Origin: Escherichia coli | Lineage (GTDB): Bacteria > Pseudomonadota > Gammaproteobacteria > Enterobacterales > Enterobacteriaceae | Length of the DNA: 64,000 nucleotides | Reading direction: 5' to 3' (one strand) | Assembly (NCBI RefSeq): GCF_003018235.1 | Contig: NZ_CP027437.1 | Shown here: positions 1,287 through 46,309 of the stretch, in pieces | Layout of the letters: the number at the start of each line of letters is the position of its first letter | Numbering within the stretch: the first letter of the stretch is position 1 | Position numbers and translations under genes: made by a program | The notes under the pieces: model-generated | Seen by the model: only the letters and a program-made list of their open reading frames with translations | What the model was told of the DNA's origin: nothing | The model's database searches: none

Positions 1287-4200
1287 TTAAGGAAAAATAA
1301 CCCCGTATTCTTCAAACGCAGCTCTAGCCGCTGCTTCAGATGCAGCGTTCTGAGTTCCAGTATTTCCGAAATGATAATGACCACTGTGAGGGGCTATATC
1401 AGTACCGAATCGTCCATTCACAACAGTAGCCTCTCCCGCCGCAAGAACTGGTTTTCCATTTGCAATTGCAGCATGAGAAATTTCTATCCCATCTTGCATT
1501 TTTGGTGCAGTTAATAGAGTGCCATCCTCAAGAAGGACATACTTTATATCGCCAGCTTCATCAGCCATATCTGCAAAACGTGGGTCTGATGGTTTCATCG
1601 GTTCAACACCGGCCTCTCTCATTGCAGCCAATTCCTCATCTAAATGTTCCGGTAATTGATTTTTAAACGGGCACCCAATAAAACCCCACGGATCACACCA
1701 GCCCACCGGGTCATGCACATACGACTGCGTGTTCATCCCGCCGCTCAGTTTCAGCGGGTCCTGGCTTAAATACTGCCCCGTTCCGGCATCGTAGTAGCGG
1801 TGTAAATTATACCACAGCCCGCTCTCCTCATCCCGCCACTGGCCCATGAAGCCCGCATCACAGCTTTCACGCTCACTGTCCGGCGAGTCGTTTGCTGCCG
1901 GAAGTCCCCACAGGCTGCGGTGTTTCGTCCACACCTTCTGGCCGTTCGCGCTGTACATCTCCTGTGGTGCGCCGTCCGGGCCGGTCACTATCGGGTAAAA
2001 ATGGCTCCGGTCATCATTCGCCGCCCGGCTTTCCTTTGCCAGCAGTTCAAACCCGTCACGGTAATGCCACTGTTCCCGTAGCGCCGGGCTGCCGTCTGCG
2101 TAGCACTTCTCACTGATGGAAAGCGCCATGCCCTGCCACTGGTAGCGCATTTCACTGATGGCGTGGCCTTGCTGCTTCCATGCAGCACGGATAACGCAGC
2201 GTTTTGCGGTTCTCCGGCCAAAGGCGTCGTAGCTGTACTGCCATACCTCACCGTCTGGTGTCTTTATCTCGCGCAGACGGTCAAAATCGTCCCAGCGGTA
2301 GCGCCACTCCTGTGGGCGAAAGCCGCGTTTTTGTTCTGTGCGCTTTGTCACCCTGCCGCAGGCGTCGTATTCGTAGCGGCTGTCGCCCGCCTGAGTCACA
2401 CATTCACGGCTGTACTGGTGCTGCGACAGAATGCCGTTTATCCGGCTTTCCGCTATCTGCTCGTTTACCGTATAGCGGTAGCGTTCTTCCTGCGCCGGGC
2501 CACCGGCGTCCAGCCGCAGTACGCTGGTTATCTGGTCGCGGGCATCGTACTGGTAGCGCGTTTCCCGCTCCGTGCGCGTTTTCGACCACACTTCATGCCC
2601 GGTCAGGCGGCCCGATTTATCCCACGCGTAGCGGTGTTCGCCCAGCGGTCGCCACGACGCCACGCTCTGGTGACCGCCAGCCAGCCGCTCTGCGCCCTGT
2701 TTTTGCCATGCCGTACGCCCGCAGGCGTCATATCCCTGCTCCTGCATATACACCGCATGGTTCAGCGGCGTCTGTGCCAGCCAGCTTTCCTCATTCTCCG
2801 GGCGGTAACGTCTGCTTTTTTCCAGCCCGGCGGGGGAATGACCGAAGTCCATCCGGTGGCCGTTGCTGCGGTAGCCCATGAGAATGCCCGAAGCATCGTA
2901 TTCTCTCTGTGTTTCCCCGTCCGGCGTTGTGGTGCCCGCCAGCCGTCCGGCTTCGTCGTAACGGTACTCCGTGCGCTGGCCATCCTGCTCTTCCGCCACC
3001 AGGCGATGACGTTCGTCCCACTCCAGTTTTACCTCGCTGGTCAGCGTGTAACCTGCTTCACTGGCATCACTGCGCTCATACACCTGCGCGCTCACCATCC
3101 GGTCATAATGGTCGTACTGATAACAGAGTTGCTGATGCTCGCCGCTGATGGTCGTCACCCGGCCATAGCCATCCCGCGCATAGCGCCATACGCTACCGTC
3201 CGGGCGGTGTTTTTCTGCCAGTCGGCCCTGTTCATCACGGATATAGACGGTTCTGCGTCCGGACCAGTCATCCTCCCCGGCCATCTGGCCCGCTGCATCA
3301 TAGTGCAGCCGCCACTGCTGGTTGCCGCTGCGCGTAAGCTGCGTCAGCCTTGCGGCACCGTCGTAGTTGCAGAGTATCCGCTGCCCGCCCGCGTCTTCCA
3401 CTTCCCGCAGCAGGTCAAATGCCCCGTGGCGGTAGCGCGTGGCCTGCCCCATGGCCCCGGTGTGGAGGGCGATTTTGCCTTCACCGTCATAGCGGAAGGT
3501 TTCCACGCCGCCATCGGCCCGGATAACCGCACTCAGTTTCTCATGCGGGTTATCAGCACCGGGGCGGTACTGCCAGTTCATGCTGCGCCCTTCCGCATCC
3601 ACCAGCCCCGTCAGCCGCAGCCAGCGGTCTTCCGTGTAATGGGTCGTGCGGCCTTCAGCATCCGTATGGGAAAGCAGGCCACCGTGGGCGCTGTAGCCCC
3701 ACTGTTCGTGGCTGCCGTCCGGGTATGTCACTTCCTTCAGCAGACCGTCTTCGGTATGACGGTACTGCCATTTTTGCCCGTTCACTTCCCGCCGGATAAG
3801 GTTCCCTTCGGCGTTATAGCTATAAGCTGCCGTGGTGTGATGGTCACGGTAGGCCGTTACCTGGCCGAACTCATCCCGCTGCCATTCACGCTTGCGCCCG
3901 TTCTCGTCCGTTTCGCTCAGGATACGCCCGGCGTAGTCGCGTTTTATCTGTGTGATACGCCCGCCCGGCTGGCGGATACACAGCGGCTGGTCGTATTCGT
4001 TACGCTCCCATTCAGTGATACGCCCCAGCGGGTCACGCTGTTTTTTCAGCAGCCAGGATTCATCGAACCACAGCGTGGTGGTGGCTCCGGTGGCGTCGGT
4101 ATAATCGGTTCTGCGCTCATCAGGGAAGTAGCGGAAGGTGTCGTTATACAGGCCTTCCTGTGTGCCTGTGGCAGTCACCCGGCCTTCATCGTCATAGCGC

Positions 4201-6480: not shown

Positions 6481-6930
6481 CTAATGGTTTCTCAAAAAAA
6501 TCTTTGCGTAATTAGGATTATTTAACTCTAAGTTCACCACATTAGATTTAAAATTATAAAAATCCGCATCTCTATCATCCTCTGTAACCTTTGAATCAAC
6601 CGTCGACCACACATTCGTATAAAAACTACACTCATGCTTTCCTGGCGTAATATGGTAATCTCTGGCAATTTGTACATAGTCCCCCACCTTCATTTCTCCG
6701 GGAGAGATTTTGTAATATTCCCCTTGTCCAAGGTTGTACATTACACCTGAATAACGAATCTTCTTGCCATCACATTCAACACTCAATTGATCGGAGCTCG
6801 GATATTTACCTTGAGATATGTACCTGACATCTATATATAATGGAATTTCACCATTATTTTTAACACGTACAGCAACATAAACGTCATCTTCTTTGGGTAT
6901 AACATCCACAATAACCATGTAACATGGCAT
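6481..6930 (-). CDS. Hypothetical protein downstream of vgrG; candidate immunity/partner for the VgrG C-terminal domain
   Basis: AT-rich ORF starting just after the vgrG stop; no obvious signal peptide; start codon uncertain (ATG at 6930 or 6918). Confidence 0.4.
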   Translation of the reverse strand: MPCYMVIVDVIPKEDDVYVAVRVKNNGEIPLYIDVRYISQGKYPSSDQLSVECDGKKIRYSGVMYNLGQGEYYKISPGEMKVGDYVQIARDYHITPGKHECSFYTNVWSTVDSKVTEDDRDADFYNFKSNVVNLELNNPNYAKIFLRNH

Positions 6931-6946
6931 CCATAAATTAAGCCTT

Positions 6947-9784
6947 TTATTCAAAATAACGTTCAAAGTTATAAGCACTTTGTAATGAGGCCCGCTTACC
7001 CTTTTTAGCTAGATCTATACCACCACTTCTTAAACCCTCATCAAAACTTCCGAGCACATCATAAAAATGTGACATTTCATGAATCAAAGTTATGACTTGT
7101 GAATCACGACCGTCCAGGGGATCGTCAATAAATTTATTTCCAAGATAAATGGTATGGGTATAATCTCCATCATTAACTCTTCCATGAACATTAACATCCA
7201 TAAATTCAAAATTTTGGTACTTAATCCCCTCATTAATTTCAATTTCTTTTTTTACAGCGTTTAAAATTTTATTCCTGGCTGCCTCATCATCAACACCGAA
7301 TATATTTCCAAAACGCTCTTTATCGTTATCATTCCAACGAATCAACTCATCTCTTGCTGATTTTAATTTTTTACGCTGCGCTTCAAGAACAAGTTTCATA
7401 TCATTTTCACTGATCCTTTTCTCCTCTATCATTTCATAAACAGGATTTCCATAATTATCTGTAAGAGGTTTTCCATTATATCCAATTATAGCTACTCCAT
7501 TACCCGGCCCTGATGTAGAAAAATCTCTAATTGTATTAATTTTATATTTACCATTTGCGTCACTACCGCCAGGATTCAGTGCCAAGTGAGTAGGTCCATC
7601 AAGGATGATAGTGCCGTCTGAATTCATCACGAGAGTGCTGCTTCCCACAGTCAACGTAATGTTCGTTGCCGCAGTCAAATGAATGGCACCAGATTTTGAT
7701 GTGATGGTAATATCCCCTTCGACAGTCTCCGTGCAGGTTCCCGTTTCTACCGTCACTTCGCGTTTACCCGTTTTCACCGTCAGAGACTGGTCACCTTCTG
7801 TCACAGTAATATCCCGGTTGCCTTTGATGGTTTCGGTGTGCTTACCCTCAACAAATTCTGTGCGATCGATTTTTACCGTAGATGTTTCGTTATGAATGAT
7901 GGTTTTCGTCCGATCTGCCTTTACCGTGTGTGTTTCGTTATTTTTCACGACGGTATTCAGATCTTTCTCCGCAAGAAACCTCACTTCTTCCGCACCTGTT
8001 TTATCGTCAAAGCGCAGCATGTTTCCGTTGGTCGGCCCGCCATACAGCGAGTGGCTGAATATCCCGCTCTGCGACGCCATGCCCGGCAATCCCCACGGCG
8101 GCATGGTGTCCTGGTTATAGGTGCGCCCTACAATGATCGGTAAATCCGGGTCGCCGTTTTTGAAATCCACCAGCACTTCCTGGCCGATGCGCGGGATCTG
8201 GATCATCCCGAATCCTTTCCCCGCCCACGGGTAGCTGACGCGGATCCAGCAGGAGCTGTTTTCGTCATTCTTTCCGTAACGGTCCCAGCCAAACTGGACC
8301 TTCACCCGGCCATATTTATCCGTCCAGATTTCCTGCCCCGCAGGGCCGGTGACGATGGCGCTCTGCGGGCCTTTGGTGTGGGGTTTGCTCAGGGTTCGCT
8401 GTGGGCGGTAAACTTCGCTGGTGGGATGCAGTTCAAACGTGGTGACATAGGTAAAATGCTGCTCCTGACCGCTGTGCTGCGCATTATCCCGTAAAAACAG
8501 CGTGGTCTGTACCAGTAGGTATTCCTGGTTGACCTCTGCCGTTGGATGATTCATCAGCGTAAAGGTGTAACCCGTCATGAGGGTGCGGATATGACCTGCC
8601 CCATGTGCCCGGCTGCCGGGGCTGCGCTGCGCTTCCATACGAATGCGCGTCAGCATCTCGCCTTCGCCCGTAGTGAAGTAATCACCAGGCCATTCATAAT
8701 GCTCGTATTCAGCATGACCGGTATCACGCGGACTAGCCACGGTACTTTTAAGCAGCGAACGAGGCTTCATAAAATCAAAATCGTCCATCACCCACTTTCC
8801 AGTACGTAGCCTCTCACTGGCCGTAATGGTGTGGATAAATTCCTTGTCCAGTTTCAGACCTTCCTGGTGCCACTCCACCAGTGGCGAGTCAGGGCACGCT
8901 TTATGACCATTGATGGCATCCGCCAGCACCAGCGTATGGCTGTTCTCGCTGTGCTCAAACCACCAGTAAATTCCCCACTCCTGCATCAGGCGCTGGATGA
9001 AATCAAAATCCGTTTCACCGTACTGTACCTGCCAGGCACGAGGTGGATAATTTTCCACCAGCCGTTTTTCCACCGGAAAGGAATATTCATCCAGTACTTC
9101 ATCGAGAATATCCACCACGGTTTTATTCTGGAACGCCTTGTAGTCGCTGGTATGGGTCAGCAGCTTCAGCCATGGCTCAATGCGTAATTCATACGTTACC
9201 GAACGGCCCTCATGGCCGACCACCCGCGCTGCCGTCACCAGCCCGCTGATATACCGTTTTTCGCCACCGTCCAGTTCAATACTGACGCACAGGTCTTTGC
9301 CCACCATGGGCTGAAGCGGCAGGTTGGCAGCGGGAGAAACGTAACCCAGGTTCAGGATGTCCGGCGTTTTAAGCTGTACTGTGTAGGAAAACAGATTCCC
9401 AAGTCCTTCCGAACCATTCATGCCTGCAAACAAAAGCAACTGCGGCGGCACCGCGCTACCACTTACTGTGACGTTATGCGCCCCCGGACCACCGGCTGCA
9501 AGCGACGACGCCGCATCCTGAACTGTACCAGCCATATCCGAGATCCCTACTGCAGCAGCGGCAGCCTGCGCAGCAGTTACTGCAGCTTTAACCAGACCTG
9601 ACGGTTCCGGCAACGCACCAAACAGGTCCGCCGCGGCCTGTTCTGCCATCTCCTCGGCGGCACCAGATACATCGGTTACGGCTGAACTGGCGCTTACAGC
9701 ACTACTTTCTCCGGCTATCGGTGGCGTGGAGATAGCTGGCCCACCGTTACTGCCAGATTTATTACTCGTAGATACAAAACTCAT
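6947..9784 (-). CDS. vgrG: VgrG (TssI) spike protein, 'evolved' type, with an AT-rich C-terminal extension containing an HExxH motif
   Basis: 945 aa. gp27-like region ([25 protein letters not shown]), gp5 OB-fold and beta-helix repeats (VKVQFGWD..., TVKxxR repeats). C-terminal about 180 aa is low GC and contains LIHEMSHF. Good SD (AAAGGA) upstream of the ATG at 9784. Confidence 0.9.
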
Positions 9785-9808
9785 GATATTTATTCCTTTA
9801 ATATCGGA

Positions 9809-10180
9809 TTAGAATTTAGCGCCCGGCGGCCAGAAAAAATAAGAAATAACCCGCCACTGTCCATCTTTATAATGAAAAAAACATGTCAGATTTAAATCCC
9901 CCCGCAAATGCCAAAACATTTCTTTGATGGGAATATTTCTGAATTTAGGATTTGTTGAGCGATAGGTGTTTTCAATTTCTATATAATACTCACCGACAAA
10001 TTTATAACGAGGATTTATAAATTCATACGCTGGCTGACCATAGTTATTTAATAGAACATTCTCTTCAACTCCATTATACACACCACTCGCATTCAGATAA
10101 GCATGCCCAGGAATATCAGACATGCTATTTTTCGCCCCACCCACTATCAAAAAAATTACCACAGCGTATATTAGTTTCAT
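9809..10180 (-). CDS. Hypothetical exported protein (N-terminal hydrophobic signal/anchor); candidate immunity protein for the upstream HExxH protein
   Basis: 123 aa, N-terminus MKLIYAVVIFLIVGGAKNS; AT-rich; its start overlaps the stop of the upstream ORF by 4 bp. Confidence 0.45.
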   Translation of the reverse strand: MKLIYAVVIFLIVGGAKNSMSDIPGHAYLNASGVYNGVEENVLLNNYGQPAYEFINPRYKFVGEYYIEIENTYRSTNPKFRNIPIKEMFWHLRGDLNLTCFFHYKDGQWRVISYFFWPPGAKF

Positions 10181-10917
10181 TTTTTTACGCTTTTCACAAA
10201 AAAATTAGAACCCGGAACCATTCTATTTAACCGCTCAATGACATTTCCCATATAACGAGAGCGCAGTTCCATACCAATATTCATTAACGCACTGGCGTCC
10301 CCGGAGAATGGTGTAGTTGCTTTATCTGCATCATCACTATAGTATTCATCAGCAAGATATCCAATAATATGCCCAAGCTCGTGAGACAGCCCTATTTGCT
10401 CATGGCAAACTTTTGATGAGCCAAGACATTTAGCTGCTGCAACTATATCTTTAGAGTCAAGTTCAACGTATCGACTATTCCAGACAATGGAACTCTGTCG
10501 AAAACTATTTGGATCATCATTATCAATTTTAAACACCACCACATCCCAATACCCATGACGATCAGTCTGAATTATTTCTATTGAGAAAGATAAATCCTTA
10601 CCATTAAACTTACTGGCAAACTCAGACTTCCCAGAAACGGATAAAAAAATCTTATTATTCCATGTTTGATTAATGACAAAAATAACTTCCCCATGAAAGG
10701 TATTTTTCTCCAAATCTGTCCAGTCAGTTTTTGCATCCCATCTTTTTATCCAATTATATTTCCATCTCAGCAACAATGAGATTGCACCATTTTCACGGTC
10801 AATTCTTAAATCTCCCCAGGCATCATTGTCCCTGAAATATCGTTTATCCAGCATTAAGTCGTCATAAGCATCGTATGCCTGCTGAATAGCCTCATCATGA
10901 GAGTTACCCATGATCAC
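10177..10917 (-). CDS. Hypothetical protein with HExxH zinc-metallopeptidase motif (SHELGHIIGYLADEY); candidate T6SS effector
   Basis: 246-aa AT-rich ORF between tagF and vgrG; HELGH motif followed by Gly and acidic residues; no signal peptide. Confidence 0.5.
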   Translation of the reverse strand: MIMGNSHDEAIQQAYDAYDDLMLDKRYFRDNDAWGDLRIDRENGAISLLLRWKYNWIKRWDAKTDWTDLEKNTFHGEVIFVINQTWNNKIFLSVSGKSEFASKFNGKDLSFSIEIIQTDRHGYWDVVVFKIDNDDPNSFRQSSIVWNSRYVELDSKDIVAAAKCLGSSKVCHEQIGLSHELGHIIGYLADEYYSDDADKATTPFSGDASALMNIGMELRSRYMGNVIERLNRMVPGSNFFVKSVKK

Positions 10918-32857: not shown

Positions 32858-32934
32858 TGGCGGAACGGACGGGACTCGAACCCGCGACCCCCTGCGTGAC
32901 AGGCAGGTATTCTAACCGACTGAACTACCGCTCC
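32858..32934 (-). tRNA. aspV: tRNA-Asp (GUC)
   Basis: Reverse complement gives GGAGCGGTAGTTCAGTCGGTTAGAATACCTGCCTGTCACGCAGGGGGTCGCGGGTTCGAGTCCCGTCCGTTCCGCCA; lies next to dnaQ as in K-12. Downstream hairpin at 32821-32848. Confidence 0.97.
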
Positions 32935-41076: not shown

Positions 41077-41153
41077 TGGCGGAACGGACGGGACTCGAAC
41101 CCGCGACCCCCTGCGTGACAGGCAGGTATTCTAACCGACTGAACTACCGCTCC
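41077..41153 (-). tRNA. aspU: tRNA-Asp (GUC), distal gene of the rrnH operon
   Basis: Identical to the aspV tRNA sequence; follows the 5S rRNA; downstream hairpin (CCTCGAGCGTTAACTCGAGG) at about 41044-41063. Confidence 0.97.
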
Positions 41154-41205
41154 ACCGAATTCTTTTACAACCACCGGTTTTATGACCGGCTTACTGCTTA
41201 ATTTG

Positions 41206-41325
41206 ATGCCTGGCAGTTCCCTACTCTCGCATGGGGAGACCCCACACTACCATCGGCGCTACGGCGTTTCACTTCTGAGTTCGGCATGGGGTCAGGTGGG
41301 ACCACCGCGCTAAGGCCGCCAGGCA
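41206..41325 (-). rRNA. rrfH: 5S ribosomal RNA
   Basis: Reverse complement matches E. coli 5S rRNA (TGCCTGGCGGCC ... GCCAGGCAT), 120 nt. Confidence 0.97.
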
Positions 41326-41416
41326 AATTCTGTTTCATCAGACCGCTTCTGCGTTCTGATTTAATCTGTATCAGGCTGAAAATCTTCTCTCATCCGCCAA
41401 AACAGCTTCGGCGTTG

Positions 41417-44321
<2,905 letters not shown>

Positions 44322-44504
44322 TCACAACCCGAAGATGTTTCTTTCGATTCATCATCGTGTTGCGAAAATTTGAGAGACTCACGAACAACTTTCGTTGTTC
44401 AGTGTTTCAATTTTCAGCTTGATCCAGATTTTTAAAGAGCAAAACTTCGCAGTGAACCTTTGCAGGTACACTCTGAAATATTTTTTATTTAATCACTACA
44501 GAGA

Positions 44505-44580
44505 TGGTGGAGCTATGCGGGATCGAACCGCAGACCTCCTGCGTGCAAAGCAGGCGCTCTCCCAGCTGAGCTATAGCCCC
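44505..44580 (-). tRNA. alaV: tRNA-Ala (UGC), 16S-23S spacer
   Basis: Reverse complement GGGGCTATAGCTCAGCTGGGAGAGCGCCTGCTTTGCACGCAGGAGGTCTGCGGTTCGATCCCGCATAGCTCCACCA. Confidence 0.97.
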
Positions 44581-44622
44581 ATAACATGTAGTTAAAACCT
44601 CTTCAAATTTGCGGTGCAAATT

Positions 44623-44699
<77 letters not shown>

Positions 44700-44767
44700 G
44701 TAGAGGTTTTACTGCTCATTTTCATCAGACAATCTGTGTGAGCACTGCAAAGTACGCTTCTTTAAGG

Positions 44768-46309
<1,542 letters not shown>

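What the first reader, a model, noticed from the sequence alone, without database searches (positions are those of the whole stretch)
9430..9784. VgrG has an N-terminal Ala/Ser/Gly-rich extension of about 120 aa before the conserved gp27-like region
The ORF begins at an ATG with a good SD (AAAGGA) and encodes a low-complexity, Ala-rich segment before the conserved ...[23 protein letters not shown] start of the VgrG fold. Most VgrGs I recall begin close to that block. This could be a genuine N-terminal appendage or an over-extended start.
Basis: partly seen in the sequence, partly recalled or inferred. Interest (0 to 1): 0.4.

Follow-up and report, generated by a model that had tools for sequence, protein, structure and literature searches.

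The report
Conserved N-terminal tail on VgrG spike
The type VI secretion spike protein VgrG in this E. coli window carries about 100 extra Ala/Ser/Gly-rich residues in front of its normal fold; the extension is translated and conserved in all close relatives in Escherichia, Salmonella and Citrobacter, so it is a family trait of unknown function, not an annotation error.

Summary
vgrG lies on the minus strand (6947-9784, 945 aa). Its first ~98-105 residues precede the point where canonical VgrGs and the TIGR03361 model begin. They are 53% Ala+Ser+Gly, against 19% in the core.

The start is not over-extended:
- The ATG and its Shine-Dalgarno site are conserved in E. coli, Escherichia sp., Citrobacter and Salmonella.
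- None of the downstream Met codons is conserved.
- Length changes are in frame.
- dN/dS is 0.2-0.35, with a significant excess of synonymous changes.
- All 120 best homologue clusters carry the extension.

It is the same tail as in Salmonella Typhimurium VgrS (STM0289). There, residues 1-80 were removed as "predicted disorder" before crystallisation (PDB 9MLP).

The tail is not featureless. It has invariant blocks: MSFVSTxNK, TPPIxGE, [16 protein letters not shown] and [16 protein letters not shown]. These are separated by variable segments, one of which varies in length. No homologue was found outside this VgrG clade.

Function is unknown. My inferred best guess (about 0.3) is a flexible, partly helical tail at the Hcp-facing base of the spike that docks a partner.

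The finding is an ordinary clade feature and a modest experimental lead. Interest is low to moderate.

The parts
6947..9784 (-). vgrG (tssI) coding sequence, 945 aa: N-terminal extension, gp27-like hub, OB fold, gp5-like beta-helix and a C-terminal toxin-like domain
   Evidence: ORF list. Pfam Phage_GPD 126-434, Phage_base_V 489-556, Gp5_trimer_C 573-680. TIGR03361 at 552 bits. 9MLP VgrS and Pseudomonas VgrG1 as solved relatives.
9794..9799 (-). Shine-Dalgarno site AAAGGA, 9 nt upstream of the ATG at 9782-9784. It sits in a 24-nt spacer after the stop of the upstream gene.
   Evidence: Sequence. The same tattaAAGGAg context is found in E. coli, Escherichia sp., Citrobacter and Salmonella loci.
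9491..9784 (-). N-terminal extension proper, residues 1-98: Ala/Ser/Gly-rich and acidic, absent from canonical VgrGs
   Evidence: Composition. Family-model and PDB offsets. dN/dS 0.2-0.35. Present in all 120 best homologue clusters.
9758..9784 (-). Near-invariant N-terminal cap MSFVSTxNK (residues 1-9)
   Evidence: Alignments.
9707..9730 (-). Conserved block (S/T)TPPIxGE (residues 19-26), flanked by variable Ser/Gly-rich segments
   Evidence: Alignments.
9578..9658 (-). Most conserved core, residues 43-69: [27 protein letters not shown], with LPEPSGLVK essentially invariant. Predicted helix, turn, helix.
   Evidence: Alignments. dN/dS as low as 0.03-0.09 in some pairs. Low-confidence AF2 helices at 33-56 and 61-78.
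9491..9577 (-). Ala-rich linker of variable length, residues 70-98. Homologues carry in-frame indels, and some Salmonella proteins carry a duplicated AAAAGMAQ unit.
   Evidence: Gap columns and length spread. No DNA repeat in this window.
9443..9490 (-). Junction [16 protein letters not shown] (residues 99-114). It is invariant and corresponds to the canonical VgrG N-terminus. It is included in the crystallised Salmonella construct.
8483..9409 (-). gp27-like hub domain (Phage_GPD, residues 126-434)
6950..7594 (-). C-terminal low-GC domain (residues 731-945) with an HEMSH motif, resembling M35 aspzincin metallopeptidases. It is not part of the extension but makes this an 'evolved' VgrG.
   Evidence: GC 34% and GC3 22%. 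Pfam Aspzincin_M35 at 28.5 bits, below the cut-off of 30. AsaP1 2x3a, E=1.6e-4.

Best explanation
Shown: residues 1-~98 of this VgrG are a genuine, translated N-terminal extension that is specific to one clade. That clade is the spike protein of the SPI-6-type (aspV-linked) type VI secretion cluster of Escherichia, Salmonella and Citrobacter. The extension has no detectable homologue elsewhere. It consists of an unstructured Ser/Gly/Thr/Pro-rich first third and an Ala-rich, probably helical remainder. Invariant short blocks (MSFVSTxNK, TPPIxGE, [28 protein letters not shown]) are separated by variable segments, one of which varies in length. Inferred mechanism, about 0.3 probability: the canonical VgrG N-terminus belongs to the gp27-like ring that stacks on the Hcp tube, so three such tails per trimer would hang from the Hcp-proximal base into the gp27 cup or the first Hcp ring. 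There the invariant [16 protein letters not shown] motif would dock a partner. The partner is most likely Hcp itself, which would help seat the first Hcp ring and nucleate the tube. A cargo protein or an assembly factor is the alternative partner. The Ala-rich linker would act as a tether whose length is tolerant to change.
For: Translation and constraint:
- The ATG and Shine-Dalgarno site are conserved in four genera.
- No downstream Met is conserved.
- Extension length varies from 105 to 118 aa, always in frame.
- dN/dS is 0.2-0.35 in the extension, against 0.06-0.2 in the core.
- Synonymous differences are in excess, p=2e-7 to 2e-3, with third-position bias.
- PGAP uses the same start in every annotated genome inspected.

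Clade universality:
- All 120 best clusters cover at least 89% of the query (116 of them 100%). 116 show all three markers from the same start, and the other 4 differ only by start call or a point change.

Uniqueness:
- A profile search of 1.84 billion representatives returned only 30 hits, all fragments of this family.
- There is nothing in Pfam. In the PDB the only significant hit is 9MLP itself.

Shape:
- AF2 on the extension gives coil at 1-32 and helices at 33-56, 61-78 and 85-96, with pLDDT ~49.
- It is not transmembrane: the best 19-residue Kyte-Doolittle window scores 1.48.

Hints for an Hcp-proximal role, from bioRxiv 10.1101/2024.12.20.629533:
- Full-length Salmonella VgrS was insoluble.
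- The 81-729 construct lacking the tail crystallised in an unusually 'open' cup.
- That construct did not bind Hcp2 in size-exclusion chromatography.
- The authors note that the Hcp-binding loops are not conserved, and that the N-terminal tag might interfere with Hcp binding.
Against: - No experiment or structure shows where the tail sits or what it binds. The structure tool gave only low-confidence monomer models.
- The failure of truncated VgrS to bind Hcp2 has other explanations, which its authors give.
- dN/dS is higher than in the core, and a third of the tail is freely variable. Much of it may be only a spacer.
- Pseudomonas VgrG1, which uses the same Eag/Rhs loading mode, works without any such tail, so the tail is not needed for the core mechanism.
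- A degraded locus encodes a variant in which the central motif is deleted (P0069).
- An N-terminal His tag on Serratia VgrG1 is tolerated (PMC13373197). This shows the N-terminus is permissive and says nothing about function.
Confidence: 0.8

Rival explanations
1. Over-extended start. Translation really begins at a downstream Met (M46, M84 or M122), and the upstream 100 codons are untranslated leader.
For: Low-complexity composition. A GAGGAG lies immediately before M46. One database entry (P0112) was called from MAEQ.
Against: - None of the three Mets is conserved across genera.
- The GAGGAG abuts the ATG with no spacing.
- The upstream frame stays open through in-frame indels.
- The frame shows purifying selection, with p down to 2e-7.
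- The first ATG with its Shine-Dalgarno site is conserved in all loci.
Confidence: 0.03
2. A translated but functionally neutral appendage. It would be a tolerated low-complexity tail, or simply a spacer, kept by descent. Its DNA would serve mainly as a homology anchor for swapping the effector-immunity modules upstream of vgrG.
For: - dN/dS is higher than in the core, and several segments vary in sequence and one in length.
- 5' vgrG remnants that carry the tail sit in tandem next to different upstream gene pairs in several genomes.
- The tail was dispensable for folding of the crystallised Salmonella core.
Against: Several blocks are invariant across genera although synonymous sites are saturated (dS 1-2). 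The 43-69 core reaches dN/dS of 0.03-0.09 in some pairs. A neutral tail of 100 aa would be expected to decay or be lost in some of the 120 clusters, and none lacks it.
Confidence: 0.2
3. An internal adaptor for cargo. The tail would recruit a specific small effector into the gp27 cup or the Hcp lumen. A candidate is the polymorphic HExxH protein encoded immediately upstream. This would be an N-terminal counterpart of the C-terminal adaptor extensions of other VgrGs.
For: - In E. coli and Citrobacter the gene pair directly upstream of every vgrG 5' end belongs to one family: a 233-268 aa HExxH protein with a ~120 aa partner that has a hydrophobic N-terminus.
- The VgrS authors propose cargo loading inside the unusually large cup.
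Against: - Salmonella loci carry the same tail with different upstream genes.
- The same tail variant occurs next to different upstream pairs, for example L011 at 2034 and at 4117, so there is no co-variation.
- Physical linkage alone would produce the association.
Confidence: 0.15
4. A delivered, membrane-active or toxic peptide. The Ala/Gly-rich helices would act in the target cell, like glycine-zipper pore formers.
For: Many small-xxx-small spacings and an Ala-rich moderately hydrophobic helix at 62-81. A recent report proposes that a VgrG can be toxic without a separate effector domain (PMC13373197).
Against: - The best 19-residue hydropathy window scores 1.48, below the usual transmembrane threshold.
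- The segment is interrupted by Lys, Gln and Asp, and the tail has a net charge of about -7.
- No immunity gene is consistently linked.
- This VgrG already carries a separate toxin-like C-terminal domain.
Confidence: 0.04

Closest known systems
Salmonella enterica serovar Typhimurium VgrS / VgrG (STM0289, SL1344_0284; PDB 9MLP; bioRxiv 10.1101/2024.12.20.629533)
   Same: It is the orthologue in the same aspV-linked SPI-6-type cluster, about 80% identical over the first 440 residues. It has the same tail, with the same start and the same invariant blocks. The authors treated residues 1-80 as predicted disorder and deleted them to obtain soluble protein.
   Different: The Salmonella protein is 729 aa and lacks the C-terminal M35-like domain found here. 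Its Ala-rich linker differs in length and sequence. No function, motif analysis or conservation analysis of the tail has been published in the papers I could search.
Pseudomonas aeruginosa VgrG1 (PA0091; 4MTK, 4UHV, 6H3L) and the VgrG of 7Q5P (which I recall as P. protegens VgrG1)
   Same: They are the nearest solved relatives outside the clade (E ~1e-118 to 1e-121). They share the gp27-OB-gp5 core. From memory, not tested here: they also share the Eag-chaperone/Rhs or PAAR loading mode.
   Different: They have no N-terminal tail. Their residue 13-16 aligns with residue 112 here.
'Evolved' VgrGs with C-terminal effector or adaptor extensions (for example V. cholerae VgrG1/VgrG3, EAEC VgrG1 TTR domain 6SJL, K. 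pneumoniae VgrG4)
   Same: They share the principle of an appendage added to a conserved spike core. This protein also has such a C-terminal domain.
   Different: Those extensions are C-terminal, at the membrane-facing tip. The tail studied here is at the opposite, tube-facing end and has no recognisable fold.
Francisella IglG PAAR-like protein with a unique N-terminal extension (PMC5014421)
   Same: It is a precedent for a lineage-specific N-terminal extension on a T6SS spike component that is required for function (title and abstract only).
   Different: It is a different protein (PAAR-like, not VgrG), in a different position on the spike, with no sequence relationship.
Tape-measure protein C-termini in phage and eCIS hubs, and N-terminal disordered packing signals of eCIS cargo. 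This is a functional analogy from general knowledge and was not tested.
   Same: These are flexible polypeptides that occupy the lumen at the hub end of a contractile tail tube.
   Different: They are separate proteins, not part of the hub. No homology was detected. The location of the VgrG tail in the lumen is only inferred.

Membership tests
T6SS spike protein VgrG / TssI (TIGR03361) | gp27-like hub domain (Phage_GPD) | tested here: met
   PF05954, E=2e-101, residues 126-434, covering model positions 2-304 of 305. TIGR03361 at 552 bits against a cut-off of 186.
T6SS spike protein VgrG / TssI (TIGR03361) | OB-fold neck and gp5-like triple beta-helix | tested here: met
   PF04717 at 489-556 and PF22178 at 573-680. 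Aligned to solved VgrG spikes through residue ~730.
T6SS spike protein VgrG / TssI (TIGR03361) | Encoded in a T6SS gene cluster with core genes | tested here: met
   TagF and TssM lie directly upstream in the window. The near-identical MEI003 locus is annotated with tssA-G, tssH, tssBC, hcp, tssJKLM, tagF, vgrG, an Eag-like gene and rhs, between tRNA-Asp and yafV.
T6SS spike protein VgrG / TssI (TIGR03361) | Trimeric spike that is secreted and needed for Hcp tube assembly | not testable with these tools
   Needs biochemistry or genetics. The Salmonella orthologue crystallises as a trimer.
SPI-6-type VgrS clade carrying the N-terminal tail | Start MSF(V/I)S with a conserved Shine-Dalgarno site, plus the LPEPSGLVK and [16 protein letters not shown] blocks ahead of the LLF...G.E block at residue 108-121 | tested here: met
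SPI-6-type VgrS clade carrying the N-terminal tail | Orthologous genomic position (aspV island; tagF upstream, Eag-like chaperone and Rhs downstream) | tested here: met
Intrinsically disordered or conditionally folded region | Low-complexity, aromatic-poor composition, and no confident fold prediction | tested here: inconclusive
   Composition fits. AF2 pLDDT is ~49 for the tail alone, with three helices. However, the full-length model was poor everywhere, with mean pLDDT of 32.5, so low confidence does not discriminate. The Salmonella authors call it predicted disorder.
Signal peptide or transmembrane anchor | N-terminal hydrophobic h-region, or a ~19-residue hydrophobic helix | tested here: not met
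   The first 30 residues are polar. The best 19-residue Kyte-Doolittle window scores 1.48 and contains Lys and Gln.
Evolved VgrG with a C-terminal M35 (aspzincin) metallopeptidase toxin | HExxH plus the aspzincin signature, with the family model above threshold | tested here: inconclusive
   HEMSH is present. PF14521 scores 28.5 bits, just under the cut-off of 30. The match to AsaP1 (2x3a) has E=1.6e-4 over 70 residues. Activity was not tested.
Any curated RNA family at the locus (alternative to coding) | Rfam match at gathering score in 9430-9784 | tested here: not met
   The only Rfam hits in the window are rRNA, tRNA and StyR-44, all elsewhere.

The most novel reading that the evidence does not exclude
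The tail is a functional module on the tube-facing side of the spike. Three flexible arms per trimer would reach into the gp27 cup or first Hcp ring and, through the invariant [13 protein letters not shown] motif, either seat the first Hcp hexamer (built-in tube nucleation) or load a cargo protein inside the spike. This would be an N-terminal counterpart of the well-known C-terminal adaptor extensions of VgrG. It could also explain why tail-less Salmonella VgrS is 'open' and does not bind Hcp2.
Probability: 0.3. Interest if true: 0.6.

Novelty: new member of a known kind. Interest (0 to 1): 0.25.

Why it matters
For annotation, the long start is correct and should not be trimmed.

For T6SS biology, nearly all work on VgrG specialisation concerns the C-terminus. 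Here one clade, which includes the Salmonella SPI-6 system, has a conserved ~100-residue tail at the opposite end. The tail contains invariant short motifs and has so far only been cut off to make the protein crystallise.

If the motifs mediate Hcp seating or internal cargo loading, this would add a new way of customising the spike. It would also bear on how the published tail-less VgrS structure and its negative Hcp-binding result are read. If the tail proves dispensable, it is just a lineage-specific disordered appendage.

Tried and rejected
- **AF2 of the full 945-aa protein** with 24 close homologues gave mean pLDDT 32.5. It was unusable for locating the N-terminus, so no fold search was run.
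- **AF2 of the tail alone** had low confidence and gives only a secondary-structure hint.
- **Pfam, NCBIfam and PDB profile searches of the tail** returned only chance-level hits such as PCB_OB, MBF2 and allophycocyanin.
- **The genome-contig scan with the tail profile** returned only two loci, Escherichia sp. and Citrobacter amalonaticus, because the scan uses near-exact peptide patterns. It is not a measure of distribution.
- **The profile search of the 50%-identity representatives** returned only short fragments. Full-length members are presumably represented by a cluster head without the tail. Absence of other hits therefore argues against unrelated carriers, but does not map the clade boundary.
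- **tblastn against plasmids** gave no relatives between 60% and 80% identity. I could not identify the nearest tail-less sister group.
- **Co-variation between tail variants and upstream effector-immunity types** was considered as evidence for a specific interaction. I rejected it because the same tail variant occurs with different pairs, and linkage alone would explain any association.
- **Other checks that led nowhere:**
  - DNA tandem or inverted repeats as the source of the low complexity: none found.
  - A second copy of the tail elsewhere in the window: none found.
  - Homology between the upstream HExxH protein and the VgrG C-terminal HExxH domain: none found.
  - Literature searches for a described VgrG N-terminal extension: they found only PAAR/IglG cases and the VgrS preprint.
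Full report
**What is there.** The finding lies on the minus strand. A 945-aa ORF runs from the ATG at 9784 to the stop at 6947. This ATG is the first start codon after an in-frame TAA nine codons upstream. AAAGGA sits at 9794-9799, 9 nt upstream of it, inside a 24-nt spacer that follows the stop of the preceding gene.

Pfam places a gp27-like hub at residues 126-434, an OB fold at 489-556 and a gp5-like beta-helix at 573-680. NCBIfam TIGR03361 (TssI/VgrG) scores 552 bits, with model position 7 at residue 112. TagF and TssM lie directly upstream. A DcrB/Eag-like gene and a 1508-aa Rhs ORF lie downstream.

The DNA is E. coli. The 601-bp query matches 27 of 5,426 complete genomes, the best at 99.8%. 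In the near-identical strain MEI003 the whole island sits between tRNA-Asp and yafV and is annotated with a full T6SS core gene set that also includes tae4/tai4 and tlde1. From memory, that layout matches Salmonella SPI-6; I did not compare it directly.

**Is the observation right?** Yes.
- Residues 1-98 are 26.5% Ala, 16% Ser and 10% Gly. That is 53% together, against 19% in the core.
- They have almost no aromatic residues, and 9 acidic against 2 basic residues.
- The low complexity does not come from DNA repeats.
- Canonical VgrGs start later:
  - Pseudomonas VgrG1 residue 13-16 aligns with residue 112 here, and a VgrG-Rhs fusion (8QJA) starts at residue 99.
  - Annotated VgrGs of Burkholderia gladioli, Mesorhizobium ciceri and an Enterobacter cloacae plasmid begin at the equivalent of residues ~96-102.

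The extra part is therefore about 98-105 residues.

**Genuine N-terminus or over-extended start?** Five lines of evidence say genuine.
1. The context tattaAAGGAg-N8/9-ATG AG(T/C) TT(T/C) is conserved in E. coli, an unnamed Escherichia species, Citrobacter amalonaticus and Salmonella enterica.
2. MAEQ is IAEQ in Citrobacter and AVEQ in Salmonella. SDM is SDI in several sequences. GMNG is SLNG or SLDG.
3. The distance from the start to the conserved junction varies from 105 to 118 residues among homologues, and always in frame.
4. Pairwise Nei-Gojobori estimates give dN/dS of 0.2-0.35 for codons 1-98 in most comparisons with the window and with L002, although Citrobacter versus Salmonella reaches 0.48. 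The core gives 0.06-0.2. dS is about 1-2 between genera. Synonymous differences make up 43-55% of all differences against about 27% expected, with binomial p from 2e-7 to 2e-3. Differences concentrate at third codon positions.
5. PGAP chose the same start in every annotated genome I inspected.

No Rfam family overlaps the region.

**How widespread is it?**
- A search with residues 1-440 returned 1,727 hits. The best 120 clusters (79-97% identical; E. coli, E. ruysiae, Escherichia spp., S. enterica, Citrobacter koseri and Citrobacter sp.) all include the tail.
- 116 of the 120 have the MSF(V/I)S start, the LPEPSGLVK block and the LLF block at residue 108-121. The other four differ only by a start call or a point change.
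- A profile of the tail, searched against 1.84 billion representative proteins, found 30 hits. All are short fragments of the same family.
- Pfam has nothing. In the PDB the only significant hit is 9MLP itself.

The tail is thus universal within this clade and undetectable outside it. I could not identify the nearest tail-less sister group. The closest solved relatives without the tail are the Pseudomonas VgrG1 proteins.

**What is already known.** PDB 9MLP is S. Typhimurium VgrS (STM0289/SL1344_0284), the orthologue. Its authors report that full-length VgrS was insoluble. [quoted passage not shown] They also report the following:
- The truncated protein adopts an unusually open cup.
- It did not bind Hcp2 in size-exclusion chromatography.
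- The Hcp-binding loops are not conserved.
- The N-terminal tag might interfere with Hcp binding.

They do not discuss the tail further. I found no other paper that does.

**Anatomy of the tail.** Alignment of 42 distinct tails shows it is not featureless. Its parts, in order, are:
- a near-invariant cap, MSFVSTxNK (residues 1-9);
- a variable Ser/Gly stretch;
- (S/T)TPPIxGE (residues 19-26);
- a second variable stretch;
- the most conserved block, [28 protein letters not shown] (residues 43-69);
- an Ala-rich linker that gains and loses residues, including a duplicated AAAAGMAQ unit in some Salmonella proteins (residues 70-98);
- the invariant junction [16 protein letters not shown] (residues 99-114).

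AF2 on the tail alone predicts coil for residues 1-32 and helices at 33-56, 61-78 and 85-96, at low confidence (pLDDT ~49). The full-length model was too poor to use. The segment is not transmembrane.

**How it most likely works.** The following is shown: the tail is translated, constrained, clade-specific and motif-bearing. The rest is inferred. The canonical VgrG N-terminus belongs to the gp27-like ring that stacks on Hcp. This rests on general knowledge of the T4 gp27 and VgrG fold, and I could not check coordinates. Three tails per trimer would then emerge at the tube-facing base.

Conserved short motifs within flexible sequence are typical of docking elements. I therefore favour, at about 0.3, a docking role in the cup or the first Hcp ring. 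Hcp seating is the leading candidate, because the tail-less Salmonella protein is open and fails to bind Hcp2. Internal cargo loading is the runner-up.

Arguments against a specific link to the upstream effector-like gene:
- Salmonella has the same tail with different upstream genes.
- The same tail variant sits next to different upstream pairs.

A neutral, merely tolerated tail remains possible, at about 0.2. A membrane-active peptide is unlikely.

**Verdict.** The extension is an established but unstudied trait of the SPI-6-type VgrG lineage. It is a reasonable small experimental lead and not a surprise. Novelty: a new member of a known kind. This copy additionally carries a low-GC, M35-like C-terminal domain. 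Interest: 0.25.

Noticed in passing
window 6950-7594 (minus), VgrG residues 731-945: The C-terminal domain of this VgrG has 34% GC (GC3 22%), against ~53-58% for the rest of the gene. It carries an HEMSH motif and weakly matches M35 aspzincin peptidases: Pfam PF14521 at 28.5 bits (cut-off 30), and AsaP1 2x3a at E=1.6e-4. It looks like a recently acquired toxin module, making this an 'evolved' VgrG. PGAP marks the near-identical MEI003 gene as a pseudogene 'missing C-terminus', although the ORF is intact here.
   Followed up: partly
window 6481-6978 (minus): A 165-aa ORF in low-GC DNA overlaps the vgrG stop. It is a candidate immunity gene for the C-terminal peptidase-like domain. It was not analysed further.
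   Followed up: no
window 9809-10917 (minus); also L002 3925-5090, L004 4865-5976, L009 5103-6187: Directly upstream of vgrG lies a low-GC pair. One gene encodes a 246-aa protein with an SHELGH (HExxH) motif and no Pfam or NCBIfam match. The other encodes a 123-aa protein with a hydrophobic N-terminus. The same polymorphic pair family (35-75% and 43-68% identity) precedes every vgrG 5' end in the E. coli and Citrobacter loci examined. It is likely an unnamed effector-immunity family.
   Followed up: partly
L003 3302, L004 4588, L009 4117, L010 4117, L011 2034: Truncated 5' vgrG remnants that retain the Shine-Dalgarno site, the start and part or all of the N-terminal tail sit in tandem upstream of the intact vgrG. 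Each has its own upstream gene pair. The vgrG 5' end seems to act as a recombination anchor for swapping these modules. The window itself has only one copy.
   Followed up: partly
protein P0083 (161 aa, from the representative search): The first ~35 residues of the tail are fused directly to a homologue of the C-terminal peptidase-like domain of this VgrG. This looks like a deletion product that removed the entire spike core.
   Followed up: no
L012 8001-8312 (P0069) and L015 1278-2274 (P0077): These are degraded relatives in sequencing-run and metagenome assemblies. One has a tail shortened to ~50 residues that lacks the LPEPSGLVK core. The other is a divergent tail (LFGALSDPSGLVKAVV) interrupted by frameshifts. 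Both are pseudogenes in eroded clusters.
   Followed up: partly
window 32861-32934; 41080-46309: A tRNA lies at 32861-32934. From the MEI003 annotation it is probably the tRNA-Asp (aspV) that bounds the T6SS island, though the coordinates were not matched. Further on is a complete rrn operon (16S, two tRNAs, 23S, 5S, tRNA) with a StyR-44 match at the 5' end of the 23S gene.
   Followed up: no
hit H21, NZ_CP134663.1: A 4.9-Mb 'plasmid' record in PLSDB is evidently an E. coli chromosome, from a yellow-legged gull. It is 100% identical to the window over the VgrG hub and may be the source genome or a very close relative.
   Followed up: no
L005-L008 (Salmonella assemblies): Many Salmonella draft contigs end about 555 bp into vgrG. 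This explains the many 'partial VgrG' database entries that consist of little more than the tail, and suggests that a repeat inside vgrG breaks assemblies.
   Followed up: no
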